A stretch of 64,000 nucleotides of DNA. Origin: an uncultured Gammaproteobacteria bacterium. Its GTDB lineage: Bacteria > Patescibacteriota > Patescibacteriia > UBA1558 > 2-01-FULL-52-15. The notes under the pieces were generated by a model. That model saw only the letters and a list, made by a program, of their open reading frames with translations. It was not told the origin of the DNA and ran no database searches. Positions within the stretch are counted from its first letter, which is position 1. Each line of letters begins with the position of its first letter. The DNA is taken from assembly GCA_964540995.1 (NCBI GenBank), contig CAZIOU010000001.1, positions 103,407-167,406 on the forward strand, given 5' to 3'. Positions 4,433-50,306 of the stretch are shown here, piece by piece. Both the position numbers and the translations under genes were made by a program.

Positions 4433-4456
4433 AAACAGGAATTATCCTGTTTTTTG
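4433..4456 (+). terminator. Rho-independent terminator after pyrG
   Basis: Hairpin aacagga-atta-tcctgtt followed by TTTTT. Confidence 0.6.
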
Positions 4457-7798: not shown

Positions 7799-7827
7799 AA
7801 AATAATCACAGTATCCCGAATTTTTAA

Positions 7828-7857
7828 GAACAGTTTTCTACTGTTTTGAGATTTTTT
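7828..7857 (+). terminator. hairpin plus T-tract after the mutase gene
   Basis: aacag-ttttcta-ctgtt followed by ttgagatttttt. Overlaps the stop of the convergent minus-strand gene. Confidence 0.4.
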
Positions 7858-14432: not shown

Positions 14433-15701
14433 GTGGACAAGAAAAAACTCAAGAAAATATTGAATGAAACCAAAGCTTGGGCAAATCAGTCTGATAGTCT
14501 TGTCGCCGTTCAAAAAACAGGAGGTGGATTAGAAAAGAAAGTTCAAATAGAACTGGGGTGGAAAGGAGGTCGTGTTGTCTATGACCGCACAAGAGGGTAC
14601 AAGGTACAAGTAGATGCCGCATATCCAAACACAAACAATCCAGAGGTGATCATGTCGGTTACCTACACCGACCCAGATTTAAGAGGTCATAGTAATGAAA
14701 ACAAGCTACACCTAAAAGTCGGTGAACTTGCCCTTCTAAAATTTGCATACCCAAGTATCAAAGTCGTTTTGGTGCTTGGCGGCAATCAGGAAGCATGGCT
14801 CCCTTATGTTCTTAAAGCGTTTGAGCATTTCTTTGATGAAGTAATTTGTTTGTGGAGAAAAGATGGCTCAGAACGCTTACTATCCATTAAGAAGAGTCAT
14901 GAGTCAGTCAAACAAAGACATGTTGAATTCTGGAAACAAATAACCACTGAATGGGGCAGGATTAAGTTTTATTCGGATAAAGATTTTACTATTCCACATA
15001 GTCTATTTAGGTATAAAACACTGGATGATTTTAAGTCTCAAAAACCAAAAGTTTTTCATCCTTCGTTAATTAGGAATGAGGTTGCTCGTCTTTGCATGCA
15101 AAGATCAAAGGATTATAGCGGGGCTGAATGGGACTCGTATCTAAAAAATCGGTGGCAAAACATCGAAATGTCTCGAAATTATTTTAACCCAATGGAATCA
15201 TTGATTGAAATTTTGCTGACAGATTCAAAGTTGAAATTTGAAGGTGGTGTCGCTCGAGATATTCAAGTTCCATCATTCCTCCATCAGCTCGGATTAAAAG
15301 GAACTCGCGTATCAGAAGATTTTGTCTTGTTCTCCAAAAAACTTAACAAAAAAGTATATATTCAATGTAAGTCATCTGGTGGAGGAAGAGATCAACATGG
15401 TAAAAATATTCAAAATCGAACAAAAGAGCAGATCACTCGTAGTATTTTGTATAGGAGTTCACTCAAAGACGGGGAAATGTATCTGGATGAGAAGAAATTT
15501 TACTGGATCTCTATTTTAGATGGCAATTGGTCTGTCAACAGTCGAGAGTCATTCAAATATATCCATATGTTACAAATAGCAGGATACGACAAGATCTATG
15601 GCGCACAAAACTTAATACTTGAGGACGATTTAACCCCAATGAAAAAGAATAACCCCTTACTTAATCACCTTATAAATGATCTTGATTGCGAATCAATTTA
15701 A
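14433..15701 (+). CDS. hypothetical protein, candidate restriction endonuclease partner of the adjacent methyltransferase
   Basis: 422-aa low-GC ORF with GTG start, convergent with and overlapping by 4 nt the stop of the MTase gene. No motif recognised. Confidence 0.5.
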   Translation: MDKKKLKKILNETKAWANQSDSLVAVQKTGGGLEKKVQIELGWKGGRVVYDRTRGYKVQVDAAYPNTNNPEVIMSVTYTDPDLRGHSNENKLHLKVGELALLKFAYPSIKVVLVLGGNQEAWLPYVLKAFEHFFDEVICLWRKDGSERLLSIKKSHESVKQRHVEFWKQITTEWGRIKFYSDKDFTIPHSLFRYKTLDDFKSQKPKVFHPSLIRNEVARLCMQRSKDYSGAEWDSYLKNRWQNIEMSRNYFNPMESLIEILLTDSKLKFEGGVARDIQVPSFLHQLGLKGTRVSEDFVLFSKKLNKKVYIQCKSSGGGRDQHGKNIQNRTKEQITRSILYRSSLKDGEMYLDEKKFYWISILDGNWSVNSRESFKYIHMLQIAGYDKIYGAQNLILEDDLTPMKKNNPLLNHLINDLDCESI

Positions 15702-18700
15702 GGCTTCTTAAATATCACAACAGATTCTCTGACTGGAATCTTACCAAACTGTTTCATCTGCTGAGGGCTATTTCCTTTCATCCTAGTAACGAAAATCTTC
15801 TCTGCTTTGAAACCCTGCTTTTCCGCGAGAAGTAAAAGTAAATGGTCAACAGGTACTACAACACCGCCCCATCTAGAATTTCCAACTACGAAGGCCGCTC
15901 TCCCTCCTCTTCGCATTACGTCAAATAAATTTACCAAGTTCTGTTCGAGATCGAAAAAATAACCAGCAATCATTTGAGGTATTTTACCGTTATTGCCGTC
16001 AGTCAATTCCATTGCAGAGATAATTTTTTGAACTTCAGGAAGTGCCTCGGAAATATTCAAGTCCAAATCGCTATCAGTGTGTGATCTAAAGGTGGATCTA
16101 ACAAGTTTCTTATACTCAACTCGATTCTTTACAAGTGACAATAAAGATAGTTCTGCTTTTTGTTGGGCAATGTAATTATTCCTATTTAAATAGGGTGGTG
16201 AAGTTATTACAAAATCAATAGAGTTTTTTTCTAGTTTAAATGTCATCGCATCTCCTAATAATATTTGATGTCGAGAATTATGTTTCTTTGAGACTTTTGC
16301 AGTAATCTCTATGTCCTCGATCATTTTATTAATTTGCTTCTTGAATATTGGAAGGATGTCTGACTCCGGGTTTAAGATCTTTATATTCAACTTCTGAAGT
16401 CCAATACTATCTGGATTAAGCATGTAGCGATAATGCGAGCCATGTTTCCTAATCTGACTGATATCCTCTAGGATGCCAACTAGTCCAAGGACTAGGAGGT
16501 CTTTTTCTTGTTGGGAGAGTGTTGAATTACTAATTTCATTTTTAATCATTTTGACTTGTTCCCAGATTTGTAAGGAGAACGCCTTACTGAGGAATTCTGG
16601 AAAAACATCCTCGTTTTTCAATGATTTTTTTTCAACTTTTAATTTAGATAAGAAATCATTTATTTTTTTAAAACTTTTTATATCAAGAGAAGATACTTTA
16701 ATCTTACTGACCCATATCATTAAAGGAGATATATCAAATGATATAGTATTAATGCCTCTTTTTTTGCTTGTAAGTATGGTAGTTCCTGAACCTACGAATG
16801 GATCAAGAATGACGGCATCACTATTTTTTTCTACGCCCAGATACTCTATAAGAAAATCAACTAAAGGTTCGGAATACCCTTGTGTAAATGGGAACCATCG
16901 ATGAACAGGAAGTTTTTTATTTATTTGAAAAGTGACAGATCTGCGTAATTCCGGTTTATCTTCCTGTAGGTTTTGATATTTCTTAATATTGATAGGGACG
17001 AATTTTTGAAGCAGTTCACTATTGTCAATTACTCGTTCTCTCTTCTCCTCTTTTGAGTTATTTTTACTTGGTAACGACCTTTTGTGACAATTTATAATGT
17101 GGTCTTTTATAAATTGATGTTCAGTAGGAGAAAGTTTGAAGGCTAGGGCAACGGCATTGTCCAATGAGATCCAACTTTTTTGATGTTCCGGGTTTTTATA
17201 TAATTCATCGACAATCTTCCGAGCAAAAATGTTTTGCTTCTCATCAAATTTTGGTAGACGGATTGATTGTAGATGGTGTTTTAATAACCTAAACCATCCA
17301 CTATGGAGTTGCGTTCCACTGTGCCGAAGAATAAATTCCATTACAGGGGTACTTAACACCGCACTCCAGAATTTTAGGTCTGCTTCACTCATCGATCTAT
17401 TGACGAATGCGTAGCCAGATCCGATTGCAACATCACCAATAGTATCCGCAGCGAATTGAGAAGAGGGCATCATTTCTTTTACTAAGATTTTTGGTGTGTG
17501 GGGTAGGTGTAAATTCTGAACTCGACTAAATGCATACCAAGAGCTATTTTTATCAAGATCTCTGTCGGAAAGTGATTGTTTATTAGATAATAAGTATGTG
17601 TATGTATTAGGTGCATTAGTTTTAAGATCATTCTCTTCCACAATGCTAACCTTACCGCTTAAAGAAACCTCGTATGGGTAAATTAGCCTATATTTCTCTC
17701 TAGATATAACGAGTCTCTTTATTTCCTCTCCACCTACGAATGGCCTTAGAAAAGATTCCTCCAGGTTCGCCCCAATTTCTTTTTTTAGTACAAAGATATC
17801 ATTTTGGCCTGTACGAAGACCTTGGAGAATATTTGGAAATATATGACCAATAAGAGGATGGCTGGGATCGTTTAATTTCTGAATAATACTCTGAGCTTCG
17901 TCCGTCGCTAAATTCCATGGAAACTTTTCTAAAATGTTAGTATTTAAACTAAAGGTTTGTGATTTATTTAGGTCGCCAGCAGATACTATTCCAGTTGGGA
18001 AATGGGTGACTGTAAATTTCTTTGCGGCTGGAAGTTTTGTAAAAGTAATAACCGTTGTGTAAGTTGTATGATCAGGAAAAACTTGAGAATCTTTAAAATC
18101 AATTATGTTGAGCACTCTCACATCTTTTGCCAATCGATTGCACATATTCTTTCCATACTCGGAATGCATGAACTTACTAGTGGTGATGTAACAGCAGATT
18201 CCACCCTCCGTAAGACTTCTTATGGCGTGCTCAATAAATATTATTGATAGATCAAAATTGCCAGAGGTAATGTCTGGATATCTTTCTTTTATTGATCGAG
18301 TGTAATGTTTTGGAAGGTTTTGTGACCTAACGTAAGGCGGATTTCCGATTAATATATCAAATTTCTCGTTCTCTAATTCAGAGGAAAACAAGGAGTTGTT
18401 TTGTAAGGCGAGTAAAGAGTCCTTGTGTTCAATTTTAGCTTCCAATCCAAGTGTCTCGTTCAATATTTTTGCAAATATAAGTGATGTTTCGTCTGTATCG
18501 TTTCCATAAAGTGATACCTCGCTACCAAAAAATTCTCTAGCACTAGATAAAAAGACGCCAGTACCACAAGAAATATCCCCAACTCTTTGAACCTTTCTTC
18601 CTGTCCTGTGTAATTTATTCCAGTGTTGCCATGCTGTTTGAGTAACCTTATCCGCTAACCATTTTTGAGTAAATACTGCACCAGAATTTTTCTGATCCTC

Positions 18701-18955
18701 ATCAGATAATATTGAGGTCCGCAATGATGCGAGTGCATCTTCAATATCGATTTGGGTGTTACTAATTGAACTCGGGGAAGCGTCTGAATTTTTTCGGGTA
18801 AGATATTCTATTTGTTTATGTATATTAGGCAGCAGATCAAATTTCTCATTCTTGGCAAGAATCAACAGTGCTCGAGTCAAGGCTTCATTTTTTGAAGAAA
18901 ATTTAGAGGATCGGGGAGTAGTATTAGAGATGTCATGTTTTGATAGAATTTGCAT
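15698..18955 (-). CDS. fused two-domain N6-adenine DNA methyltransferase (type IIS/IIG-like) with a central TaqI-C-like target-recognition region
   Basis: First module has motif I DISCGTGVFL and motif IV GNPPYV. A TRD-like region follows (LRTGQNDIFVL...IYPY...WYAFSRVQ). The second module has DPFVGSGTT and SPPYLNRNNY. No nuclease domain recognised. Confidence 0.8.
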   Translation of the reverse strand: MQILSKHDISNTTPRSSKFSSKNEALTRALLILAKNEKFDLLPNIHKQIEYLTRKNSDASPSSISNTQIDIEDALASLRTSILSDEDQKNSGAVFTQKWLADKVTQTAWQHWNKLHRTGRKVQRVGDISCGTGVFLSSAREFFGSEVSLYGNDTDETSLIFAKILNETLGLEAKIEHKDSLLALQNNSLFSSELENEKFDILIGNPPYVRSQNLPKHYTRSIKERYPDITSGNFDLSIIFIEHAIRSLTEGGICCYITTSKFMHSEYGKNMCNRLAKDVRVLNIIDFKDSQVFPDHTTYTTVITFTKLPAAKKFTVTHFPTGIVSAGDLNKSQTFSLNTNILEKFPWNLATDEAQSIIQKLNDPSHPLIGHIFPNILQGLRTGQNDIFVLKKEIGANLEESFLRPFVGGEEIKRLVISREKYRLIYPYEVSLSGKVSIVEENDLKTNAPNTYTYLLSNKQSLSDRDLDKNSSWYAFSRVQNLHLPHTPKILVKEMMPSSQFAADTIGDVAIGSGYAFVNRSMSEADLKFWSAVLSTPVMEFILRHSGTQLHSGWFRLLKHHLQSIRLPKFDEKQNIFARKIVDELYKNPEHQKSWISLDNAVALAFKLSPTEHQFIKDHIINCHKRSLPSKNNSKEEKRERVIDNSELLQKFVPINIKKYQNLQEDKPELRRSVTFQINKKLPVHRWFPFTQGYSEPLVDFLIEYLGVEKNSDAVILDPFVGSGTTILTSKKRGINTISFDISPLMIWVSKIKVSSLDIKSFKKINDFLSKLKVEKKSLKNEDVFPEFLSKAFSLQIWEQVKMIKNEISNSTLSQQEKDLLVLGLVGILEDISQIRKHGSHYRYMLNPDSIGLQKLNIKILNPESDILPIFKKQINKMIEDIEITAKVSKKHNSRHQILLGDAMTFKLEKNSIDFVITSPPYLNRNNYIAQQKAELSLLSLVKNRVEYKKLVRSTFRSHTDSDLDLNISEALPEVQKIISAMELTDGNNGKIPQMIAGYFFDLEQNLVNLFDVMRRGGRAAFVVGNSRWGGVVVPVDHLLLLLAEKQGFKAEKIFVTRMKGNSPQQMKQFGKIPVRESVVIFKKP

Positions 18956-19292
18956 GATTGAATTATAGTACTTTTACCACGTTCGTGTAAACACGGATGT
19001 GTGGATAGTTTTCTACTACCCTATTTAAATCGAGTATTCGACTGCGGTCTGCCCCTTATCGGATTTTGGTCTCGGCACCTCAAACCATTCGAGGTAAACC
19101 TTGTAGATTGCCCTCAATTCGCGTATTATTTTATCAAGATACTCGGATTTAAGCGCTTTTTAGGTTAAAAGTTCCTAGATAGCGCCCCCGCCAGATTTCC
19201 GACTTTGACCTGAGGTAAAACTGCTGGCAATTTTAGTTATCAGAATAAGCGAAAGTTGCTCTCCTGATCATTTCATGATCTAATACCTGTAT

Positions 19293-19730
19293 ATGGCGGG
19301 TAATAAGAAAGCTGGCGATCAGGGGGAACAAGAGGTTATACAATTAGTACTTTGTCCTAACTGTGGCAAGAAATTAATGGGGTTACCAACTGGGTATCCT
19401 CTTTTTGATGTCCAGTGTACTGGATGTTCGTTTCGAGCGCAGGTAAAAACTAATCAAACAAAGCCAAAGAAAGTGATATTTGGTGCTGGTTGGGAGATTA
19501 TGAATAAGGTTCTGAAATCGGGATTTATAACCCCACCTCTGATTACAAATTTTAAGTGGTCAGACAAAAACGGTAAACATCAAGAAATTCGTTTTTATCC
19601 ATTTATCCCCAAAGCAAATCTAAAAAAACATCGATTATCTAAAACCGCTCGCCGAGCAAATTATTGGATGTTTAATTATGTTGGGTTAGATAAATTGCCC
19701 CATTTTGTTGTCTACCAAAAAAAGGTATAA
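19293..19730 (+). CDS. hypothetical zinc-ribbon protein, possibly a PD-(D/E)xK-like nuclease
   Basis: 145 aa with CPNCG...CTGC. The arrangement E13 ... D40 ... QVK52 is reminiscent of an Hjc-like nuclease core. Divergent from the MTase gene. Confidence 0.45.
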   Translation: MAGNKKAGDQGEQEVIQLVLCPNCGKKLMGLPTGYPLFDVQCTGCSFRAQVKTNQTKPKKVIFGAGWEIMNKVLKSGFITPPLITNFKWSDKNGKHQEIRFYPFIPKANLKKHRLSKTARRANYWMFNYVGLDKLPHFVVYQKKV

Positions 19731-19780
19731 TCAGCAAAACTCAGCGTCCCCTTGGTTGAAAGCCTAGATCACAAATAAAT

Positions 19781-20308
19781 ATGGCAATATTCTATATTCT
19801 CCCAATACTTTTTATTATCGGCTGCATAATAACGATCGTCGTTATAGTGCGTTCAGTTTCGCATGGAGCTGATGCTAATGTAGAAGAAAAAGTTAAGTAT
19901 TACTATACTCGTAAGAACTTCTTCATGACCAAAGCAGAACATGGATGCTATGACGCTCTAGTAGAGGCCGTAGGGTCGGATTATCGCATATTCGCCCAAG
20001 TACATTTACCGACACTGGTCGATCATACTATTCGCGGACAGGATTGGCGTGCTGCTCTGGCGCATATCAATCGAAAGTCTGTTGATTTTGTTCTTTGCGA
20101 CAAGGCATATCTTTCACCCAAACTTGCTATAGAGCTGGATGATAAATCACATGAACGCGCGGATCGACAAGAACGCGATCGTGAAGTGGAATGTATCCTC
20201 CGTGAGGCTGGCTTGCCACTTTTAAGAGTTCCCAATCATAGCAATTTAGACCCAAACAAGCTCAAAGAAGAGATTATAGATGCTATCAATTTTGAACAGA
20301 CAGCATAA
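19781..20308 (+). CDS. DUF2726-like (NERD/restriction-endonuclease-like fold) protein with N-terminal TM helix
   Basis: VDFVLCDK ... IELDDKSHERADRQERDREV motif pattern recalled for DUF2726. Confidence 0.55.
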   Translation: MAIFYILPILFIIGCIITIVVIVRSVSHGADANVEEKVKYYYTRKNFFMTKAEHGCYDALVEAVGSDYRIFAQVHLPTLVDHTIRGQDWRAALAHINRKSVDFVLCDKAYLSPKLAIELDDKSHERADRQERDREVECILREAGLPLLRVPNHSNLDPNKLKEEIIDAINFEQTA

Positions 20309-20457: not shown

Positions 20458-20928
20458 ATGAAACTAAAACAGTCCCAAGCTGCTCCGGCTTTTTCATTAC
20501 CTGACCAGTCCGGTCAAGCCCACGCTCTCAAAGACTATCTCGGTCAGTGGGTTTTGATTTATTTTTATCCGAAAGACGACACACCAGGCTGCACCACTGA
20601 AGCTTGCAGTCTGCGCGACAACTTTCCCAAGTTCAAGAAGCTGCAGGCCGTCGTACTCGGCATTAGTGTCGACACGGTGAAAAGCCATCAAAAGTTTGTG
20701 ACGAAATATCAGCTGCCTTTCACCCTGCTGGCCGATGAAGATAAAACAGTGGTGAAAAAATACGGCGTCTGGCAGAAGAAAAAGTTTATGGGACGGGAAT
20801 ACATGGGCATTGTCAGAAATTCTTTTCTCATTAACCCGAAGGGCAAGATTGCCAAAATCTACGAAGGTGTGAAGCCGGCAGAACACGCTGATAAGGTGTT
20901 GGGGGATTTGAGGGTATTGATTAAATAG
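20458..20928 (+). CDS. bcp: thiol peroxidase Bcp (peroxiredoxin, AhpC/TSA family)
   Basis: FYPKDDTPGCTTEACSLRD peroxidatic-Cys motif. Confidence 0.85.
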   Translation: MKLKQSQAAPAFSLPDQSGQAHALKDYLGQWVLIYFYPKDDTPGCTTEACSLRDNFPKFKKLQAVVLGISVDTVKSHQKFVTKYQLPFTLLADEDKTVVKKYGVWQKKKFMGREYMGIVRNSFLINPKGKIAKIYEGVKPAEHADKVLGDLRVLIK

Positions 20929-20959: not shown

Positions 20960-20986
20960 AAAACAGGGAAATAATCTCTGTTTTTT
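20960..20986 (+). terminator. hairpin aaaacag-ggaaataatct-ctgtttt plus T-tract, abutting the NYN start codon
   Basis: 7-bp stem and TTTTTT run. The ATG of the next gene starts at the next nucleotide (20987). Confidence 0.55.
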
Positions 20987-21508
20987 ATGTCTAAAAACCT
21001 GAATAATTACGCTTATATTGATGGGCAGAACCTGAATCTCGGTATTCAAAGTCTAGGTTGGAAATTGGATTATAAAAGATTTCGTATCTATTTAAAAGAC
21101 AAGTATGGTATTATCAATGCTTACCTCTTTATTGGTTTCATTCCTGAACAAAATAAGCTATATACCGCACTCCAACAAAGTGGGTTCATCTTAAAGTTCA
21201 AACCCACTTTTGCGAATCCGGAGGGTAACTACAAAGGCAATGTTGATGCCGATCTAATCTTACAGTTAATAGTTGATTTTTATGAACATCGATTCAACAG
21301 CGCTTTAATTGTTACTAGTGATGGTGATTTTTACTCAACAGTTAATTTTCTTTACAAAAAAGGTAAACTAATTGCAGTCTTAAGCCCCTATTTTAGAACC
21401 TGTTCATTCTTGCTCAGAAAAACGGCTAGAGAAAAGCTATTATTCATGAATACTTTGAGATCAAAACTAGAATATAAAAAAACACCGCCCAAGGACGAAA
21501 CCAATTAG
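20987..21508 (+). CDS. NYN-domain (LabA-like) predicted RNase
   Basis: YAYIDGQNL, KGNVDADLIL and IVTSDGDF acidic motifs of the NYN/PIN-like fold. Confidence 0.7.
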   Translation: MSKNLNNYAYIDGQNLNLGIQSLGWKLDYKRFRIYLKDKYGIINAYLFIGFIPEQNKLYTALQQSGFILKFKPTFANPEGNYKGNVDADLILQLIVDFYEHRFNSALIVTSDGDFYSTVNFLYKKGKLIAVLSPYFRTCSFLLRKTAREKLLFMNTLRSKLEYKKTPPKDETN

Positions 21509-21703
21509 GAGGTATTTTTGAGTGTGTATTACTCAGATAGTATATCAGCAATAATAAATGTGTCAAACCCTTATTCACGGAAAAGAAAAAGCCCCCGATA
21601 GAGACTAGCCCTATAGGGTCCTTTTCGTAGTAATATTGGTAGTTTATCAAGTACACCTATTGTGTCAAATCAAGCAAAGATAACCGTGAAATAACCCCCT
21701 TTA

Positions 21704-21732
21704 TTGATGAAGTAGTATTAGTCTGCTATACT
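21704..21732 (+). promoter_or_regulatory. sigma70-like promoter TTGATG-17-TATACT upstream of the MFS transporter gene
   Basis: -35 at 21704-21709 and -10 at 21727-21732 with a 17-nt spacer. Confidence 0.45.
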
Positions 21733-21738
21733 CTGAAA

Positions 21739-21768
21739 TCAAATACAATCAATTGTGATTGTATTTGA
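21739..21768. promoter_or_regulatory. perfect 13-bp inverted repeat, candidate repressor operator over the transcription start
   Basis: tcaaatacaatca-attg-tgattgtatttga begins 7 nt after the -10 and ends 43 nt before the MFS ATG. Confidence 0.45.
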
Positions 21769-21810
21769 ACCCAATACCTAATTCCTAAAGCATAATTCCG
21801 ATTTAAATTC

Positions 21811-23001
21811 ATGTCCCAAAAAACTCTCATCCTCCTAACTGCCTTCGTCGATGTACTCGGCCTCGGCATCGTCATACCGATCTTACCTTTCTATACCCAA
21901 CAGTTTGGCGCCAGCGCCTTGATGGTAACACTATTGTTTACCGTTTTTTCTTTGTGTTCGTTTGTTAGCGCGCCGTTCCTTGGTGCTTGGTCGGATCGTA
22001 TTGGCAGACGTCCGGTGTTGTTACTTAGTATCGCTTCGACGGCCGTGGGTTGGCTGGTCTTCGCTTCTGCGAGCAGTCTAATCGTCTTATACATCGCTCG
22101 CATTATCGATGGTTTGGCAGCTGGAAATTTCCCTATTACTCAGAGCTACTTGGCTGACATTGCCAAAGACGACAAAGAGCGAACTCATAATCTAGGCTTG
22201 ATCGGTGCTATCTTCGGTATCGCTCTGACCGTTGGACCGATGATCGGAGGACTACTGGCTACTTTTGGACCAAGCGTGCCATTTTGGTTTGTCGGTATCC
22301 TGGCCACCATCAATTTCCTCCTGGCTTTACGTTTCTTACCGGAATCACATCATAAGCGCAGCGTGGAGAAAATGTCGGTCAATCCTTTGAAGCCAATTAT
22401 CAATGCCATGCGTGACAAGCTTTTGCTGCCTGGGTTTGTTGCTTTCTTCCTTTTCAGTCTAGCGATTGCCACACAGCAATCAGTCTTCGCACTTTTCCTC
22501 GGGACAGCTTTCAATTACACGGCAGTAGCTACTGGTTGGTTCATGACAGGCGTTGGTATCTTGCTAGCTTTCAACCAAGCCGTGCTACTGAGACGTTTTT
22601 GGCTCAAGAAATTCAAAGAGCCCTTGCTAGAAGTAATAATGTTTATCGGTTTAGCTGCTGGTTTCCTCTTCATGTCGGTTGAAGTTTTGTGGGTGTTTAT
22701 CATTGGATTGATCTTGCTAACCTTCGCTCAATCGGTGTTACGTGTGGTCATGACCAGTCAATTGGTCGCTCTACGACCGGATAGGCGAGGAGAGGTACTT
22801 GGTACTATGACCTCCGTTATGTCGCTTGGTATGGTTATTGGACCTGTCGGCGCTGGTTTACTCTTTGAACGTCATCCCGCAGGACCGTTCTTAGCAGCTT
22901 CAATAATTTCCGTTGGTGCCTTACTTATTATTTTCTATTTCCGGAAACGCTTCACTGCAACTAATTTACCTGATGACGTTGAGCCGGTGGAAACGCTCTA
23001 G
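21811..23001 (+). CDS. MFS transporter (drug/proton antiporter-like)
   Basis: 12 helices. MFS motif A GAWSDRIGRRPVLL. Confidence 0.85.
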   Translation: MSQKTLILLTAFVDVLGLGIVIPILPFYTQQFGASALMVTLLFTVFSLCSFVSAPFLGAWSDRIGRRPVLLLSIASTAVGWLVFASASSLIVLYIARIIDGLAAGNFPITQSYLADIAKDDKERTHNLGLIGAIFGIALTVGPMIGGLLATFGPSVPFWFVGILATINFLLALRFLPESHHKRSVEKMSVNPLKPIINAMRDKLLLPGFVAFFLFSLAIATQQSVFALFLGTAFNYTAVATGWFMTGVGILLAFNQAVLLRRFWLKKFKEPLLEVIMFIGLAAGFLFMSVEVLWVFIIGLILLTFAQSVLRVVMTSQLVALRPDRRGEVLGTMTSVMSLGMVIGPVGAGLLFERHPAGPFLAASIISVGALLIIFYFRKRFTATNLPDDVEPVETL

Positions 23002-23056
23002 TGTGCTGCATCTAAACTGGTGCTATAATTATTCTAGTTATAATTAATAATATTGT

Positions 23057-23473
23057 ATGGTGATAAATTATTGGGCGATTGCGGCGTGTGCCGTTCTTTC
23101 GATGGTGATTGGTTTCATCTGGTACGGACCATTATTTGGTAAGAAGTGGGCAGAGATTATTGGCGCTACAGCGCGTACTGCTGAAGAACGTAAGAAGATG
23201 CAAGCAACAGCTGGACCGTTGTATGTTGTGCAATTTGTTTTGAGTATTTTCCAAGTCTGGGTCTTGGCTTATTATATTGCTGGTTGGCAGGACGCTCCTG
23301 GTGTGGTCAACGCCTTATGGATCTGGGCGGCTTTCGTTATGCCAGTAGTCGCTGGCGCTAGCATGTGGAACAATGACTCTGGCAAGGTTAAGTGGACACG
23401 GTTCTTACTTCAGAGCGGTTATCAGTTAGTGTTGTTTATCGTCTATGGTTTGATTTTGAGCAGCTGGCGTTAA
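23057..23473 (+). CDS. DUF1761-like small membrane protein
   Basis: N-terminus MVINYWAIAACAVLSMVIGFIWYGPLFGKKW typical of that family. Four helices. Confidence 0.55.
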   Translation: MVINYWAIAACAVLSMVIGFIWYGPLFGKKWAEIIGATARTAEERKKMQATAGPLYVVQFVLSIFQVWVLAYYIAGWQDAPGVVNALWIWAAFVMPVVAGASMWNNDSGKVKWTRFLLQSGYQLVLFIVYGLILSSWR

Positions 23474-23487
23474 TTAAGAATTACAAT

Positions 23488-23513
23488 AAAACAGGGATAT
23501 TAATCTCTGTTTT
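23488..23513 (+). repeat. hairpin aaaacag-ggatattaatct-ctgtttt abutting the transposase start codon (copy 2 of the motif at 20960)
   Basis: Near-identical to 20960-20986. The ATG at 23514 follows immediately. Candidate IS left-end or REP-like hairpin. Confidence 0.55.
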
Positions 23514-24131
23514 ATGTTATCAAATAAATATTATCGTCGCAGACCTCGTCGCATGACTGATTTTGATTACAATCAGCCGGGTTGTTATTTCATTACTATC
23601 ACACCACAGAAGCGCTATCCGTATTTCGGAACTATTCAGAATGGTGTTGTTTGTATAAATGCCTTGGGGCAGATCGTGTACAATCAATGGTTGTGGTTAC
23701 AGAAATACCCGCAGATTGAGCTTGATCAGTTCATCGTAATGCCTGATCACGTGCATGGGATTATTTGTATTAAGGACGTCGACGATGTGGGGGACGACCG
23801 ACTCCCCCGGGACGTAGTCCGGCCAACCCTAGGGTTGGCCAAACCAAGAGCAGATGATGATCGGTTGAGTTCGAAAGATCGTCGACGTATGCTTCTCTGC
23901 CGCACAGTCTGCGCCTTCAAGACAACCAGCTCGAAACTTATTCATCTTCAAGGCGAGACCGATTTCCGCTGGAAAAGATCCTATCACGACAAGATAATTC
24001 GCGTAGAAGATGCGATGGAAAAGATTCAAGAATATATTTACAACAATCCCTATAATTGGACGCTTAAATATGGTGACTCGGCTAACCCTAGGGTTAGCCC
24101 GACGGGAGGCGAGTTGGGAGCGCTCGAATGA
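23514..24131 (+). CDS. IS200/IS605-family Y1 HUH transposase-like protein (REP-associated tyrosine transposase-like)
   Basis: HuH motif MPDHVHGII and catalytic-Tyr region FRWKRSYHDKIIR. Contains an apparent ~35-aa insertion that includes a perfect 20-bp palindrome. A second palindrome copy lies at the 3' end. Confidence 0.7.
   Translation: MLSNKYYRRRPRRMTDFDYNQPGCYFITITPQKRYPYFGTIQNGVVCINALGQIVYNQWLWLQKYPQIELDQFIVMPDHVHGIICIKDVDDVGDDRLPRDVVRPTLGLAKPRADDDRLSSKDRRRMLLCRTVCAFKTTSSKLIHLQGETDFRWKRSYHDKIIRVEDAMEKIQEYIYNNPYNWTLKYGDSANPRVSPTGGELGALE
23821..23840. repeat. perfect 20-bp palindrome GGCCAACCCTAGGGTTGGCC inside the transposase ORF
   Basis: Self-complementary. Encodes RPTLGLAK in frame. 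Confidence 0.8.
24080..24099. repeat. perfect 20-bp palindrome GGCTAACCCTAGGGTTAGCC near the transposase 3' end
   Basis: Self-complementary, 2 differences from the 23821 copy. A related split hairpin ggacaaccc...gggttgtcc lies at 24162-24211. Confidence 0.8.
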
Positions 24132-24271
24132 GTTTTATCGCGTATCATTTCGCGTCTCCGCGGTAAGTTCGGACAACCCCTCGCCTCGCTGAAGCTCCGT
24201 CGAAGCGGGTAGGGTTGTCCCTGCCGTGCATCATTGCCCATCACCTGAAATCATATATAATAAACATCTCT

Positions 24272-48430: not shown

Positions 48431-48914
48431 GGCTTTCTGCGGTTTGACGATCGCCGTTGCGCTTTCCCAAGAGTTTGCTAAAACTCTAGTGATATCTTGA
48501 GAAAGCGCAAAGGAGGAAAGTCCGAACACCGCAAAAAATGGTAGTTGCTAACGCCAACCCCCGATCATAGACGCTTGCGTCTTGAACGGGAGGACAAGTG
48601 CAACAGAAAGTAAACCGCCTACCTTCGCTCACTGTAAGTGAGTTCGGCGGCAGCCTCAATCAAGGGGCTTGCCCGCCGTAGCTCGCTTTTGGCGAGCGAA
48701 GGTGGGTAAGGGTGAAACCGTGAGGTAAGAGCTCACGCGTCTCTGTGGTGACACAGGGAATGAGGTAAACTCTACCTGGTGCAAGGCCAAGTTGTTCCCG
48801 CCAACGGCGGGACGGGTAGGCTGCTTGATTCCAGTGGCGACACTGGAACTAGAGAGATGATCGTCGCTCCGTCTTTGATGGAGAACAGAATTCGGCTTAT
48901 ATGCCGCAGAAAGC
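48431..48914 (+). ncRNA. rnpB: RNase P RNA (bacterial type A) with extended P3 and P12
   Basis: P1 gctttctgcgg/ccgcagaaagc and conserved blocks AGGAAAGTCCG, GTGCAACAGAAAGTAAACCGCC, GGTAAGGGTGAAA, GGTAAGAGC, GGTAAACTC, GCAAGGCCAA, GGGTAGGCTGCTTGA and CAGAATTCGGCTTAT. Confidence 0.8.
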
Positions 48915-50306
48915 ATGAAACGTTTTGATTTTGTCTTCACTATTCTTCAGGTACCGCTCGACTATTTGATGTTAGTCGTAGCTGGCTTAGCAAGTTATTC
49001 TTTGCGTTATCAAGGACTGGTCACACAGGTGAGGCCGGTTTTTTTTGATGTTGGCTACAGTGATTTCGTTCACCTCTTATTTGGAGTAGCTCTGGTTGGT
49101 ATATTGGTATTTGCTTGGAGTGGATTGTACCGTTCGGAACGAGTGCTGCACTCAGCGGATGAATTTCGAAAAATATTTCTAGCTGTCTCGACTACGCTTC
49201 TAATTGTTGTCATCGCTATTTTCTTACGTCGTGAACTGTTTTCTTCTCGCTTTATTATATTGCTAGCTTGGATCTTCGCAGTCATATTTATCTATACTGG
49301 TCGCGTAGCTCTGCGCTACCTAAAAGGAATGATCCTCAGCCATAGCTCTTGGGGTTATTCGATCGCGCTGATTGGCAACGGTGAATCAGTCAAGATTATC
49401 CAGCAGTATTATCATCATAAGAAACATCTGGGCTATCATGTACAAGCAGTGGTACCGGACTTTTCATTAGCTTCTCGCGATCAACTAGGGGCTCTGGCTC
49501 GTGAGGACAAGCTTGATGAGTTGGTGCAATTACGAACCGACTTCGATGAGGCACAAACCGAAGAAGTTATTACTTTCTGCAATACGCATCAAGTTAACTT
49601 GCTGTACCTCGCTAGTTTCGTTCAGACGCAACTTATTAACTACGAAGCTATCAATATTGCCGGCTATCCCATTATTCGGGTCAAACGAACTCCTCTTGAT
49701 GGCTGGGGTAGAATCGGCAAACGGCTGTTTGATTTGGTGGTAGCAGCTTTTGCTCTTATTATCTTGTCACCACTATTTCTGATCGTGACGGTGATTGTTC
49801 GACTTGATTCCCGCGGGCCAATACTGTTCTCCGCCATGCGCGTCGGTCAGAAAGGTAAGATTTTTAAACTCTACAAGTTTCGCTCCATGATCGTTGGCGC
49901 TGATAAGATGAAGCAGGAGTTGGCAGCTTTCAACGAACGAGCTGACGGGCCTCTTTTTAAAATGACTCATGATCCACGTATTACCAAGGCCGGCCGCTGG
50001 TTGCGTCGTAGTAGTCTGGACGAATTGCCGCAGCTGTGGAACGTGCTGATTGGCGACATGAGTTTGGTCGGTCCGCGCCCGCACGAACCAGAGGAGGTGT
50101 CTCGCTATACCAGCCAATACCGTAAGTTGCTGACCATCAAGCCGGGCATCACGGGCGCGGCTCAAGTTTCTGGGCGTTCGACTCTAACCTTTGACGAAGA
50201 GGCGCGTTTAGATATTTATTATATTGAAAATTGGTCGCTGTGGCAGGATATACGTATCTTAGCCAAGACTCCGGCGGCTCTGATTAACTACCGAAACGCT
50301 TCCTAA
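48915..50306 (+). CDS. polyprenyl-phosphate sugar phosphotransferase (bacterial sugar transferase family)
   Basis: C-terminal catalytic domain (LFDLVVAAFALIILSPLFL, KFRSM, DELPQLWNVLIGDMSLVGPRP). ATG is the first nucleotide after the rnpB P1 3' strand. Confidence 0.8.
   Translation: MKRFDFVFTILQVPLDYLMLVVAGLASYSLRYQGLVTQVRPVFFDVGYSDFVHLLFGVALVGILVFAWSGLYRSERVLHSADEFRKIFLAVSTTLLIVVIAIFLRRELFSSRFIILLAWIFAVIFIYTGRVALRYLKGMILSHSSWGYSIALIGNGESVKIIQQYYHHKKHLGYHVQAVVPDFSLASRDQLGALAREDKLDELVQLRTDFDEAQTEEVITFCNTHQVNLLYLASFVQTQLINYEAINIAGYPIIRVKRTPLDGWGRIGKRLFDLVVAAFALIILSPLFLIVTVIVRLDSRGPILFSAMRVGQKGKIFKLYKFRSMIVGADKMKQELAAFNERADGPLFKMTHDPRITKAGRWLRRSSLDELPQLWNVLIGDMSLVGPRPHEPEEVSRYTSQYRKLLTIKPGITGAAQVSGRSTLTFDEEARLDIYYIENWSLWQDIRILAKTPAALINYRNAS

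What the first reader, a model, noticed from the sequence alone, without database searches (positions are those of the whole stretch)
20960..23513. Near-identical 26-nt hairpin sits flush against the start codons of two unrelated genes (NYN RNase and the HUH transposase); looser relatives terminate pyrG and the mutase gene
The two sequences aaaacagggaaata-atctctgttttttATG (20960-20989) and aaaacagggatattaatctctgttttATG (23488-23516) are near-identical. The 7-bp stem, the loop, and the position relative to the ATG are all conserved. Two 26-nt sequences this similar are unlikely to arise by chance in 64 kb.

Hairpins with the same AAACAGG...CCTGTTT(T) flavour follow pyrG (4434-4455) and the mutase gene (7829-7857). 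In IS200/IS605 elements the left-end hairpin lies just upstream of tnpA. REP elements mobilised by RAYT transposases are dispersed hairpins that often double as terminators.

So this may be a REP-like family linked to the resident transposase rather than plain terminators. If so, the NYN gene would sit behind a solo element copy.
Basis: seen in the sequence. Interest (0 to 1): 0.5.

Follow-up and report, generated by a model that had tools for sequence, protein, structure and literature searches.

The report
Portable hairpin before swapped accessory genes
A 25-base stem-loop with an unchanging stem sits directly against the start codon of unrelated accessory genes (an NYN RNase, a RAYT-type HUH nuclease and, in a relative, a HigB-type toxin); it moves with the NYN gene and marks where gene modules are exchanged, but it was never found more than twice per genome and most likely works as a terminator-type insulator or leader hairpin.

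Summary
Copy 1 (20960-20984) and copy 2 (23488-23513) share identical 10-nt arms, AAAACAGGGA/TCTCTGTTTT, with one G·T wobble that pairs only on the + strand. The ATG follows 2 and 0 nt after the stem. The hairpin does not belong to the upstream genes. It is the first base of a ~710-bp NYN module (20960-21668) found in three genomic contexts. It stays in place when NYN is replaced by a HigB/HigA-like pair. It is absent after DUF1761 in two relatives that lack the RAYT-like gene. Its arms are 20/20 identical across NYN alleles whose third codon positions are only 47-57% identical. The exact-arm hairpin never occurs twice in any of 185,579 species genomes, lacks a GTAG foot and flanks the RAYT-like gene on one side only. 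GC-rich, GTAG-footed palindromes inside and after that gene are better REP candidates. A looser AAACAGG…CTGTTT class, including the pyrG hairpin, recurs more than chance; the mutase hairpin does not stand out. My best reading is a terminator-type insulator or leader hairpin fixed at the 5′ edge of potentially harmful accessory genes, probably read by a sequence-specific partner. It also serves as a crossover point. The mechanism is inferred, not shown.

The parts
20960..20984 (+). Hairpin copy 1: AAAACAGGGA-AATAA-TCTCTGTTTT, followed by TT and the NYN start codon at 20987-20989
   Evidence: Sequence; folds. It is identical in L043, L001 and L031, and has the same arms with an 8-nt loop in L107.
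23488..23513 (+). Hairpin copy 2: AAAACAGGGAT-ATTA-ATCTCTGTTTT, followed directly by the start codon of the RAYT-like gene at 23514-23516
   Evidence: Sequence; folds. It is 100% identical in L043, L044 and L045. It is absent after DUF1761 orthologues in L124 and L125.
20987..21508 (+). NYN (PF01936, LabA-like) predicted RNase gene
   Evidence: Pfam E = 3.2e-13. Homologues are named mostly as Patescibacteria. The alleles are 63-79% identical in protein sequence.
21509..21668 (.). 3′ non-coding part of the NYN module. Homology to L107 ends at TGTCAA (21663-21668). On the minus strand it carries two TTGACA-N16-TAnnnT promoter-like sites, each followed by a terminator-like hairpin.
   Evidence: blastn aligns window 20960-21668 to L107 6862-7565 at 75% identity; alignment; consensus scan.
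21677..21694 (+). 18-nt remnant (AAGATAACCGTGAAATAA) matching the last codons of the XRE/HigA-like antitoxin gene that occupies this site in L001
23514..24131 (+). RAYT/TnpA_REP-like Y1 HUH gene (205 aa), with HUH motif PDHVHGI and Tyr motif YIYNNP
20458..20928 (+). AhpC/TSA (Bcp-type) peroxiredoxin gene upstream of copy 1
   Evidence: Pfam E = 1.3e-43. In L001 only its last ~48 nt remain, yet the hairpin is kept.
23057..23473 (+). DUF1761 gene upstream of copy 2
   Evidence: Pfam. Orthologues at 75-77% identity have other neighbours and no hairpin.
4433..4452 (+). pyrG terminator hairpin AAACAGGA-ATTA-TCCTGTTT plus a T-run: a looser member of the same sequence class (same arms minus the wobble pair)
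7827..7847 (+). Hairpin AGAACAGT-TTTCT-ACTGTTTT between the convergent His_Phos_1 gene and a minus-strand gene. It is a generic terminator and is not shown to be related.
23821..23840 (+). GC-rich perfect palindrome GGCCAACCCTAGGGTTGGCC, with GTAG at 23814-23817. It lies in frame inside the RAYT-like gene, between the HUH and Tyr motifs.
   Evidence: The protein segment is hypervariable among relatives.
24080..24099 (+). Second palindrome GGCTAACCCTAGGGTTAGCC, in frame near the C-terminus of the RAYT-like gene
24171..24220 (+). Third related inverted repeat, GGACAACCC…GGGTTGTCC with a 32-nt loop, just downstream of the RAYT-like gene; GTAAG at 24163

Best explanation
The two copies are one and the same sense-strand stem-loop: A4-CAGGGA, an A/T-rich loop, UCUCUG-U4-6. 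This is the architecture of an intrinsic terminator. It belongs to the genes downstream of it, not to the genes upstream, and it is the fixed 5′ edge of small accessory-gene modules.

**Proposed working**
- In RNA the hairpin stops or attenuates transcription arriving from upstream.
- It leaves the AUG, which has no Shine-Dalgarno sequence, at the foot of a stable hairpin. In four of five contexts the AUG is partly paired.
- Together these effects would keep the synthesis of potentially harmful proteins low and insulated. The proteins are an NYN RNase, a RAYT-like HUH nuclease and a HigB-type toxin. The left-end terminator of IS200 does the same for its transposase.
- The stem sequence and its G·U wobble are invariant while neighbouring near-neutral sites are saturated. 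A sequence-specific partner therefore probably reads the hairpin. The candidates are the NYN RNase itself or the RAYT-like protein.
- The identical 25-30 nt also serve as crossover points. This would explain why module swaps start exactly at the hairpin and why the same hairpin ends up in front of unrelated genes.

**Shown:** the structure, the strand asymmetry, the invariance, the linkage to the downstream genes and the junction positions.

**Inferred:** termination, the effect on translation, the identity of any partner and the role in recombination.
For: **The hairpin travels with NYN**
- Homology between the window and L107 starts at the first base of the hairpin (20960) and ends at 21668, yet the module sits at a different locus of an otherwise syntenic relative.
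- In L031 the identical hairpin plus NYN follows an MFS gene.
- In L107 two strong terminators already precede the hairpin, so it is not needed there to end an upstream gene.

**The hairpin persists when genes around it change**
- L001 keeps the hairpin plus TTATGT, but a Gp49/HigB-like toxin and an XRE antitoxin follow it.
- L043 has flanks 92-99% identical to the window but an NYN allele only 72% identical in DNA sequence, with the divergent stretch beginning just after the hairpin.

**Copy 2 goes with the RAYT-like gene**
- It is present in L043, L044 and L045.
- DUF1761 orthologues at 75-77% identity in L124 and L125 have neither the RAYT-like gene nor the hairpin.

**Sequence constraint**
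- The arms are 20/20 identical across NYN alleles with 63-79% protein identity and 0.47-0.57 identity at third codon positions.
- An ordinary terminator shared by the same two genomes has drifted to 79% identity.

**Hairpin rather than spaced operator**
- Loop length varies (4, 5 and 8 nt) while the arms stay constant.
- The G·T wobble makes the + strand fold better than the minus strand, both as RNA and as DNA.

**Terminator architecture**
- An A-tract, a stem and a T-run of 4-6 are present.
- The related pyrG, L124 and L125 hairpins sit at gene 3′ ends.

**Context and precedent**
- The AUG is paired in an outer helix in c1, c2, L001 and L031.
- The surrounding region is a restriction-modification or defence-like variable island.
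- IS200 carries a left-end bidirectional terminator that protects tnpA from impinging transcription, with the tnpA transcript starting just after it (PMC4513863).
Against: - No expression data exist. Termination, transcription start sites and translation effects are all untested.
- The stem is A/T-rich, with 3 G-C pairs and one G·U in 10. The consensus terminator scan did not list either copy.
- If the hairpin terminates efficiently, the downstream genes need a promoter. None is convincingly placed. An embedded TAATCT box fits c1 and c2 but not L107, and the window shows no general leaderless signature.
- Pure structural function would allow compensatory changes, and none is seen. The RNA-terminator idea therefore does not by itself explain the invariance.
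- In L107 the AUG is not predicted to be paired.
- Copy 2 lies inside a broader ~250-nt conserved stretch, so its own conservation is not specific.
- The evidence that copy 2 goes with the RAYT-like gene rests on only two relatives, both with different overall synteny.
Confidence: 0.4

Rival explanations
1. A low-copy REP-like element. The hairpin forms in single-stranded DNA and is bound, and perhaps cut, by the RAYT-like HUH protein. Hairpin-directed cutting and joining would move or exchange the adjacent modules.
For: - A RAYT/TnpA_REP-type gene with intact catalytic motifs lies directly behind copy 2.
- A homologue of that gene is flanked by REPs.
- The invariant stem and the conserved wobble are what a structure- and sequence-specific ssDNA-binding protein would need.
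- The hairpin lies at module junctions.
- The AAACAGG…CTGTTT class recurs: three times in 64 kb, once in 9 kb of L124, and in L107.
- Some TnpA_REP subclasses have atypical REPs without a GTAG foot (PMC6006769).
Against: - Exact copies never exceed one per species-representative genome.
- There is no GT[AG]G foot, no REPIN doublet, and no copy 3′ of the gene.
- No empty site was seen.
- No conserved target or cleavage motif lies 5′ of the hairpin.
- The NYN module has no matching hairpin at its right end.
- The gene has better REP candidates of another sequence.
- It is unknown whether the L107 and L031 genomes carry the RAYT-like gene.
Confidence: 0.2
2. An RNA operator for the NYN RNase. The enzyme would recognise and cleave this hairpin in its own leader (autoregulation) and in the leaders of a few other genes (the RAYT-like gene, HigB), forming a small post-transcriptional regulon.
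For: - The tightest linkage seen is hairpin-NYN: three contexts with an invariant stem.
- The sense-strand asymmetry fits RNA.
- RNases that control their own mRNA through leader hairpins are established for RNase III and RNase E. This point is from my own knowledge and was not checked here.
Against: - NYN orthologues at 63-66% identity lack the hairpin.
- L001 has the hairpin with no adjacent NYN.
- The substrate specificity of PF01936 proteins in bacteria is unknown.
- There are no expression or cleavage data.
Confidence: 0.15
3. A terminator with an embedded promoter. The loop and 3′ arm would hold a -10 box (TAATCT, whose last T is the wobble T) that starts a leaderless or near-leaderless mRNA at the ATG, while the hairpin ends upstream transcripts.
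For: - TAATCT ends 9 nt (c1) and 7 nt (c2) before the A of the ATG.
- The reading would explain the flush position and why the wobble T never becomes C.
- The perfect-stem variant in L028 (TAATCC) sits after rplT with no gene flush against it.
- Several window genes have a TATAAT- or TATACT-type box 6-7 nt before the start codon.
Against: - The L107 loop ATATTACA gives no TAnnnT at the right distance.
- There are no good -35 boxes.
- TAnnnT shows no clear peak 6-9 nt before start codons across the 63 ORFs called mechanically in the window.
Confidence: 0.1
4. Ordinary intrinsic terminators of bcp and DUF1761. They would look alike because of one local duplication or recombination event, with no role for the downstream genes.
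For: - Both copies follow co-directional genes and have an A-tract, a stem and a U-tract.
- Exact-arm hairpins occur as terminator-like sites after genes and tRNAs in many unrelated genomes.
Against: - The hairpin moves with NYN to sites with other upstream genes.
- It is absent after DUF1761 orthologues.
- Its arms are more conserved than second codon positions of NYN.
- It lies flush with the ATG in five contexts and before three gene families.
Confidence: 0.1
5. A double-stranded DNA operator for a dimeric repressor, for example an XRE-type antitoxin.
For: - It is an inverted repeat directly upstream of a toxin-antitoxin pair in L001.
Against: - The spacing between the half-sites varies (4, 5 and 8 nt) while the arms stay identical.
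- The palindrome is kept imperfect in the same way in all copies.
- The hairpin is present without any XRE gene in the window, L107 and L031.
Confidence: 0.03

Closest known systems
IS200 left-end terminator hairpin (nt 12-34), which shields tnpA from outside transcription (PMC4513863)
   Same: It is a short A/T-flanked hairpin placed immediately 5′ of a Y1 HUH transposase-family gene. It has terminator architecture, and the gene's own expression signals start right after it. Its presumed purpose is to keep a harmful protein at a low level.
   Different: - No IS is present here. There is no right-end hairpin, the gene is single-copy and syntenic, and no 5′UTR stem-loop sequestering a Shine-Dalgarno sequence follows.
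- The same hairpin also precedes an RNase gene and a toxin gene.
- The stem sequence is conserved across diverged alleles.
REP/REPIN elements with their RAYT (TnpA_REP) gene (PMC6006769, PMC5581495, PMC3116915)
   Same: - It is an extragenic hairpin adjacent to a RAYT-type gene.
- A second copy lies elsewhere in the neighbourhood.
- A looser class with the same foot occurs at gene 3′ ends.
- The stem is imperfect in a constant way.
   Different: - It is not multi-copy in any genome scanned.
- It has no GT[AG]G foot and no inverted doublets.
- It lies on one side of the gene only.
- It is A/T-rich.
- It lies flush with start codons.
- The RAYT-like gene carries other, GC-rich, GTAG-footed palindromes.
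Rho-independent (intrinsic) terminators
   Same: It has an A-tract, a stem, a short loop and a U-tract, and both copies follow co-directional genes.
   Different: - The stem is weak and A/T-rich.
- Both the sequence and the wobble are invariant across lineages.
- It is linked to the downstream gene, not the upstream one.
- The start codon lies within 0-2 nt of the stem.
Integron attC sites
   Same: It is an imperfect hairpin at the boundary between exchangeable gene cassettes. The imperfection marks one strand, and different ORFs are found behind the same site.
   Different: - Pfam, NCBIfam and PADLOC scans of a subset of genes in 15.7-28.4 kb gave no tyrosine-recombinase or integrase hit.
- The R″/L″…L′/R′ organisation is absent.
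- Only two sites are present.
- The hairpin lies 5′ of the ORF's start codon, not 3′ of the cassette.
- The modules carry their own flanking non-coding DNA.
Autoregulatory leader hairpins of RNase genes (rnc, rne); from my own knowledge, not checked here
   Same: It is a conserved stem-loop in front of a ribonuclease gene that stays with the gene.
   Different: The leader is only about 30 nt with no Shine-Dalgarno sequence. The same hairpin also precedes non-RNase genes. No cleavage evidence exists.

Membership tests
REP / REPIN (RAYT-mobilised repeats) | Many copies dispersed in extragenic space of one genome | tested here: not met
   The exact-arm pattern (loop 4-6 nt) gave 42 stretches in 185,579 species genomes, never two in one genome. 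The window holds two copies. The looser class gives 3 loci in 64 kb.
REP / REPIN (RAYT-mobilised repeats) | 5′ GT[AG]G tetranucleotide at or near the foot of the hairpin (PMC6006769) | tested here: not met
   The 5′ flanks are TTGA, CAAT, ATAT and GGGT in the four contexts.
REP / REPIN (RAYT-mobilised repeats) | REPs flank the RAYT gene on both sides (REPtron), usually as inverted doublets | tested here: not met
   There is one copy 5′ of the gene and none 3′. No inverted partner lies within reach.
REP / REPIN (RAYT-mobilised repeats) | Presence/absence polymorphism at orthologous sites (mobility) | tested here: inconclusive
   No empty site was found. The hairpin persists while neighbouring genes change. 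Only a handful of short related contigs were available.
RAYT / TnpA_REP protein family (for the 205-aa gene product) | HUH motif and catalytic Tyr motif in a Y1 core | tested here: met
   PDHVHGI and YIYNNP are present, and these motif residues (P77, H79, H81; Y174, I175, N178, P179) are invariant in homologues. The profile hits only 4ER8 (E. coli TnpA_REP), E = 6.5e-7, across both motifs.
RAYT / TnpA_REP protein family (for the 205-aa gene product) | Score above the curated family cut-off | tested here: not met
   NCBIfam REP_Tyr_transpos scores 55.8 bits against a cut-off of 80. Pfam Y1_Tnp scores 20.5 bits against 23. The protein is a distant member or a sister group.
IS200/IS605 element ends | Similar subterminal hairpins at both ends of an element that contains tnpA | tested here: not met
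   No second copy lies 3′ of the gene, and the downstream inverted repeat has another sequence.
IS200/IS605 element ends | Several identical element copies and a conserved target tetra- or pentanucleotide 5′ of the left end | tested here: not met
   The gene is single and syntenic in L043, L044 and L045. The 5′ flanks are unrelated.
Intrinsic terminator | Stable stem-loop immediately followed by a U-tract, at the 3′ end of a transcription unit | tested here: met
   The stems have 10-11 pairs and are followed by T6 (c1) or T4 plus ATGTT (c2), both after co-directional genes. The stem is G+C-poor, and the consensus scan did not list either copy.
Intrinsic terminator | RNA 3′ ends mapped in the U-tract | not testable with these tools
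   No transcript data are available.
Any Rfam family | Match at the gathering score | tested here: not met
   The window matches only RNase P RNA and two tRNAs. Around the hairpins there are only sub-threshold sraA matches, at 22-28 bits against a gathering score of 56.
DNA uptake sequence (paired as terminators) | The core oligomer is strongly over-represented genome-wide, also as single copies | tested here: not met
   AAACAGG occurs 7 times against 5.3 expected, and ACAGGGA 6 times against 2.9.

The most novel reading that the evidence does not exclude
The hairpin plus the following TTATGT would be the recognition and joining site of a cassette-exchange system that works on single-stranded DNA and is driven by the domesticated RAYT-like HUH enzyme. 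It would be a functional analogue of integron attC/attI in a small-genome lineage whose closest protein matches are named Patescibacteria. ORFs (NYN, HigBA, the RAYT-like gene itself) would be placed behind a fixed hairpin-ATG platform.

What the evidence allows:
- Junctions lie exactly at the 5′ base of the hairpin (L107, L031) and about 12 nt after the ATG (L001).
- The hairpin, its 0-2 nt spacing to the ATG and the base T after the ATG are shared by three unrelated genes.
- The wobble marks one strand.
Probability: 0.1. Interest if true: 0.8.

Novelty: new variant of a known kind. Interest (0 to 1): 0.4.

Why it matters
If the best reading holds, this is a compact, portable expression-insulating hairpin shared by several potentially harmful accessory genes in a little-studied, small-genome lineage. 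It would give a handle on how such genes are silenced and exchanged there. It would also offer a simple sequence marker for module boundaries in variable defence-type islands.

The invariant stem points to an unknown sequence-specific partner. That can be tested directly with two proteins encoded next to it.

If the REP or cassette-exchange reading holds instead, it would give a concrete substrate for a domesticated RAYT-type enzyme outside the classical REP-bearing groups. It would also link HUH enzymes to gene-module shuffling.

Tried and rejected
- **Chance similarity.** Rejected.
- **Multi-copy REP family with these arms.** The genome scan found at most one copy per species genome. The metagenome scan gave 61 hits and the viral scan 2, none with the c1/c2 flanks or loops; most have a terminator-like A-tract/T-run form.
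- **Ancestral terminator of DUF1761.** Rejected for the two relatives examined.
- **IS200/IS605-type element around the RAYT-like gene.** There is no right-end copy, no conserved target and the gene is syntenic.
- **Spaced dimeric DNA operator.** The loop length varies between 4, 5 and 8 nt.
- **DNA uptake sequence.** The core k-mers are not over-represented.
- **General leaderless architecture supporting an embedded promoter.** TAnnnT shows no clear peak before start codons, and the L107 loop does not fit.
- **Known RNA family.** None matched.
- **Exact-sequence look-ups of the window's NYN and RAYT-like proteins.** Nothing was on record.
- **Cluster look-ups to name the organism.** No names were returned. 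The taxon therefore rests only on homologues named Patescibacteria. The two species-representative contigs that share the locus are labelled 'uncultured Gammaproteobacteria' in their records.
- **GCTATACT as a recurrent promoter box.** It occurs 4 times against 1.6 expected, which is not significant.
- **Enrichment of the exact hairpin in contigs labelled Saccharibacteria (4 of 42).** This is not distinguishable from chance, because such genomes may use many short A/T-flanked terminators. That is my own rough estimate, not a computed value.

Full report
**1. What is in the sequence**

Copy 1 (c1) is AAAACAGGGAAATAATCTCTGTTTT at 20960-20984. It is followed by TT and the ATG of an NYN-domain gene at 20987. 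Copy 2 (c2) is AAAACAGGGATATTAATCTCTGTTTT at 23488-23513. It is followed directly by the ATG of a 205-aa Y1 HUH gene at 23514.

The two 10-nt arms are identical. They form 10 pairs in c1 (loop AATAA) and 11 pairs in c2 (loop ATTA). One pair is a G·T wobble that pairs only on the + strand. As RNA or as DNA, the + strand folds better than the minus strand, and both fold far better than shuffles.

Chance does not explain the similarity. The consensus with up to three mismatches is expected 0.00 times in shuffles of the window. The exact arm pair is found in only 42 stretches among 185,579 species-representative genomes.

Both start codons are supported by homologues.

**2. Surroundings**

The local gene order is as follows:
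- a 1085-aa methyltransferase on the minus strand
- a DpnI-like nuclease
- DUF2726
- Bcp-type peroxiredoxin (20458-20928)
- c1
- NYN (20987-21508)
- MFS transporter (21811-23001)
- DUF1761 (23057-23473)
- c2
- the RAYT-like gene (23514-24131)
- a PIF1/RecD-like helicase
- a P-type ATPase

This looks like a restriction-modification or defence-type variable island.

The best homologues of NYN and DUF1761 carry Patescibacteria (CPR) names. The two species-representative contigs that share this locus are labelled 'uncultured Gammaproteobacteria'. I leave the taxon open.

**3. Is it a dispersed repeat?**

The scan of genome contigs with AAAACAGGGA-N4-6-TCTCTGTTTT returned 42 stretches, each from a different genome and each with a single match. 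Most are terminator-like sites after genes or tRNAs in unrelated phyla.

The metagenome scan gave 61 hits and the viral scan 2. None has the flanks or loops of c1 or c2.

The exact hairpin is therefore present once or twice per genome, not tens of times.

A looser class does recur:
- AAACAGG-N4-14-CTGTTT hits three loci in the window (pyrG at 4433-4452, c1 and c2) against 0.01 expected.
- The pyrG hairpin has exactly the c-type arms minus the wobble pair, and has the loop of c2.
- The same AAACAGGA/TCCTGTTT arms end a 157-aa gene in L124 and L125. Those loci were fetched for DUF1761, not for the hairpin.
- L107 has an AAAGCAGGG…CCCTGTTTT hairpin.

Among A3-stem-T3 hairpins in these sequences, roughly half share the CAGG core.

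The heptamer AAACAGG itself is not over-represented, so this is not an uptake-sequence phenomenon.

The mutase hairpin shares only AACAG/CTGTT. I could not measure the genome-wide number of the looser class.

**4. Which gene does the hairpin belong to?**

Five related contexts were recovered.

- **L043.** It has the same order as the window and both hairpins identical. Its NYN region is only 72% identical in DNA, while the rest is 92-99% identical.
- **L044 and L045.** Copy 2 is identical.
- **L001.**
  - The bcp gene is replaced by a 459-aa ORF except for its last ~48 nt.
  - The intergenic region and the hairpin are kept.
  - After TTATGT comes a Gp49/HigB-like toxin gene and an XRE antitoxin gene.
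  - The window still carries the last 18 nt of that antitoxin gene at 21677-21694.
- **L031.** An MFS gene (77% protein identity) is followed by unrelated intergenic DNA. Then come a hairpin 25/25 identical to c1, TTATG and NYN.
- **L107-L111.**
  - NYN is 78-79% identical in protein.
  - The module sits between orthologues of other window genes (window 10.5-14.3 kb).
  - It is preceded by two strong terminators and a GC-rich hairpin.
  - blastn homology to the window begins at the first A of the hairpin (20960) and ends at TGTCAA (21668).
  - The arms are identical and the loop is 8 nt, ATATTACA.

For copy 2, DUF1761 orthologues at 75-77% identity (L124, L125) have other neighbours, no RAYT-like gene and no such hairpin after them.

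More distant NYN orthologues (63-66% identity) and more distant RAYT-like homologues (38-40%) lack the hairpin.

The hairpin therefore goes with the downstream genes and sits exactly where modules are exchanged.

**5. Constraint**

NYN alleles are 63-79% identical in protein. They are 0.47-0.57 identical at third codon positions and 0.79-0.89 at second positions. The 20 arm bases and the wobble are nevertheless identical in the window, L031 and L107, which are different loci with different flanks.

No compensatory change is seen. Only the loop varies, at 4, 5 and 8 nt.

For comparison, an ordinary bidirectional terminator shared by the window (about 11538) and L107 is 79% identical, with substitutions in one arm.

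Variable spacing argues against a dimeric duplex operator. An invariant stem sequence argues for a partner that reads sequence as well as shape.

Copy 2 lies within a ~250-nt stretch of low divergence, so its own conservation is less telling.

**6. The neighbouring 'transposase'**

- It has PDHVHGI (HUH) and YIYNNP (Tyr) motifs.
- It matches NCBIfam REP_Tyr_transpos below the cut-off, at 55.8 against 80 bits.
- As a profile with its homologues, it hits only E. coli TnpA_REP (4ER8), E = 6.5e-7, over both motifs.
- A 40%-identical homologue (L123) is flanked by three copies of GTAG-GGAACGGTCGCGACCGTTCC, a textbook REPtron.

In the window, the gene carries three related GC-rich palindromes:
- GGCCAACCCTAGGGTTGGCC at 23821-23840, with GTAG at 23814
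- GGCTAACCCTAGGGTTAGCC at 24080-24099
- GGACAACCC…GGGTTGTCC at 24171-24220, with GTAAG at 24163

Two of these lie in frame inside the gene. The first falls in the hypervariable segment between the HUH and Tyr motifs.

In-frame REP insertions between these motifs, and a GT[AG]G foot, are described for TnpA_REP subclasses (PMC6006769).

These palindromes are the better REP candidates for this enzyme. None occurs elsewhere in the 64 kb.

**7. Mechanism**

The anatomy consists of an A-tract, a short stem, an A/T-rich loop, a U-tract, no Shine-Dalgarno sequence and an AUG 0-2 nt after the stem. The AUG is partly paired in four of five contexts.

This fits a terminator-type insulator or attenuator that also hampers initiation. 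It sits in front of genes whose products cut nucleic acids or poison translation.

IS200 offers a documented precedent. A left-end bidirectional terminator protects its tnpA gene from outside transcription, and the tnpA transcript begins just after it (PMC4513863).

The identical 25-30 nt would also be natural crossover points. That explains the junctions.

This does not by itself explain the invariant stem. I therefore add an unidentified sequence-specific reader, either the NYN RNase or the RAYT-like protein.

An embedded -10 box (TAATCT, whose last T is the wobble T) would explain both the flush position and the wobble in c1 and c2. It fails in L107, and the window shows no general leaderless signature.

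None of these functional steps is shown; all are inferences from sequence.

**8. Comparison and verdict**

The element is not in Rfam. It fails the defining features of REP/REPIN: copy number, GTAG foot, doublets and two-sided flanking. It also fails those of IS200/IS605 ends. It meets the structural definition of an intrinsic terminator but behaves unlike one in linkage and conservation.

I file it as a new variant of a known kind: a cis-acting insulating or leader hairpin.

The REP-like interpretation is only partly supported.

The most novel reading not excluded is a HUH-dependent, hairpin-delimited cassette-exchange site. I give that about 10%.

Noticed in passing
window 23821-23840, 24080-24099, 24171-24220: Three related GC-rich palindromes (GGnnAACCC…GGGTTnnCC) lie in and just after the RAYT-like gene, and none elsewhere in 64 kb. 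Two are in frame within the gene: the first lies between the HUH and Tyr motifs, the second near the C-terminus. The first and third have a GTAG/GTAAG foot. This resembles the in-gene REP insertions reported for TnpA_REP subclass 2.4 (PMC6006769).
   Followed up: partly
L123 215-240, 1003-1030, 1207-1232: A 40%-identical homologue of the RAYT-like protein is flanked by three copies of GTAG-GGAACGGTCGCGACCGTTCC, a classical REPtron arrangement.
   Followed up: partly
window 21485-21668, minus strand: There are two strong promoter-like sites (TTGACA-N16-TATACT at 21566-21539 and TTGACA-N16-TAAACT at 21668-21641). Each is followed by a terminator-like hairpin (21498-21485 and 21606-21590). They could encode small RNAs convergent with, or antisense to, the NYN 3′ end. 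The segment is conserved in L107 and partly deleted in L043.
   Followed up: partly
window 21677-21694; L001 2270-2287: An 18-nt remnant of the XRE/HigA-like antitoxin gene persists downstream of the NYN module. A toxin-antitoxin pair and NYN therefore alternate at the same site.
   Followed up: yes
window 21739-21768: A perfect 13-bp-arm palindrome, TCAAATACAATCA-ATTG-TGATTGTATTTGA, lies between a GCTATACT box and the MFS transporter start codon. It looks like an operator. It is imperfect in L001.
   Followed up: no
L124 7212-7234 and L125 1832-1854: These are orthologous terminators with AAACAGGA/TCCTGTTT arms after a 157-aa gene. The loop of one matches the reverse complement of the other better (13/15 against 9/15), which suggests a small hairpin-mediated inversion.
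   Followed up: partly
L117 1771-2851, L118 1818-2898: In a more distant lineage, a canonical IS200-type Y1_Tnp gene (148 aa, Pfam E = 2.7e-41) lies directly upstream of the NYN orthologue. Two other hairpins lie between them. This is a second, independent NYN-Y1 neighbourhood.
   Followed up: no
L001 145-1600: At the orthologous site the bcp gene is replaced by a 459-aa ORF with no Pfam match. The last ~48 nt of bcp and its intergenic region are retained.
   Followed up: partly
window 15698-20308: A 1085-aa type II/IIG-like methyltransferase, a DpnI-like methyl-directed nuclease and a DUF2726 protein lie just upstream of the finding, so the hairpins sit in a restriction/defence-type island.
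   Followed up: partly
window 48435-48915: The RNase P RNA (class A, 243 bits) spans 481 nt against a 367-position model, so it must carry sizeable insertions.
   Followed up: no
L028 7018-7041 and 7774-7797: An unrelated contig labelled Saccharibacteria has two hairpins of the same class within 800 nt. One is a perfect-stem version right after rplT. L055 and L072 also carry two each.
   Followed up: partly
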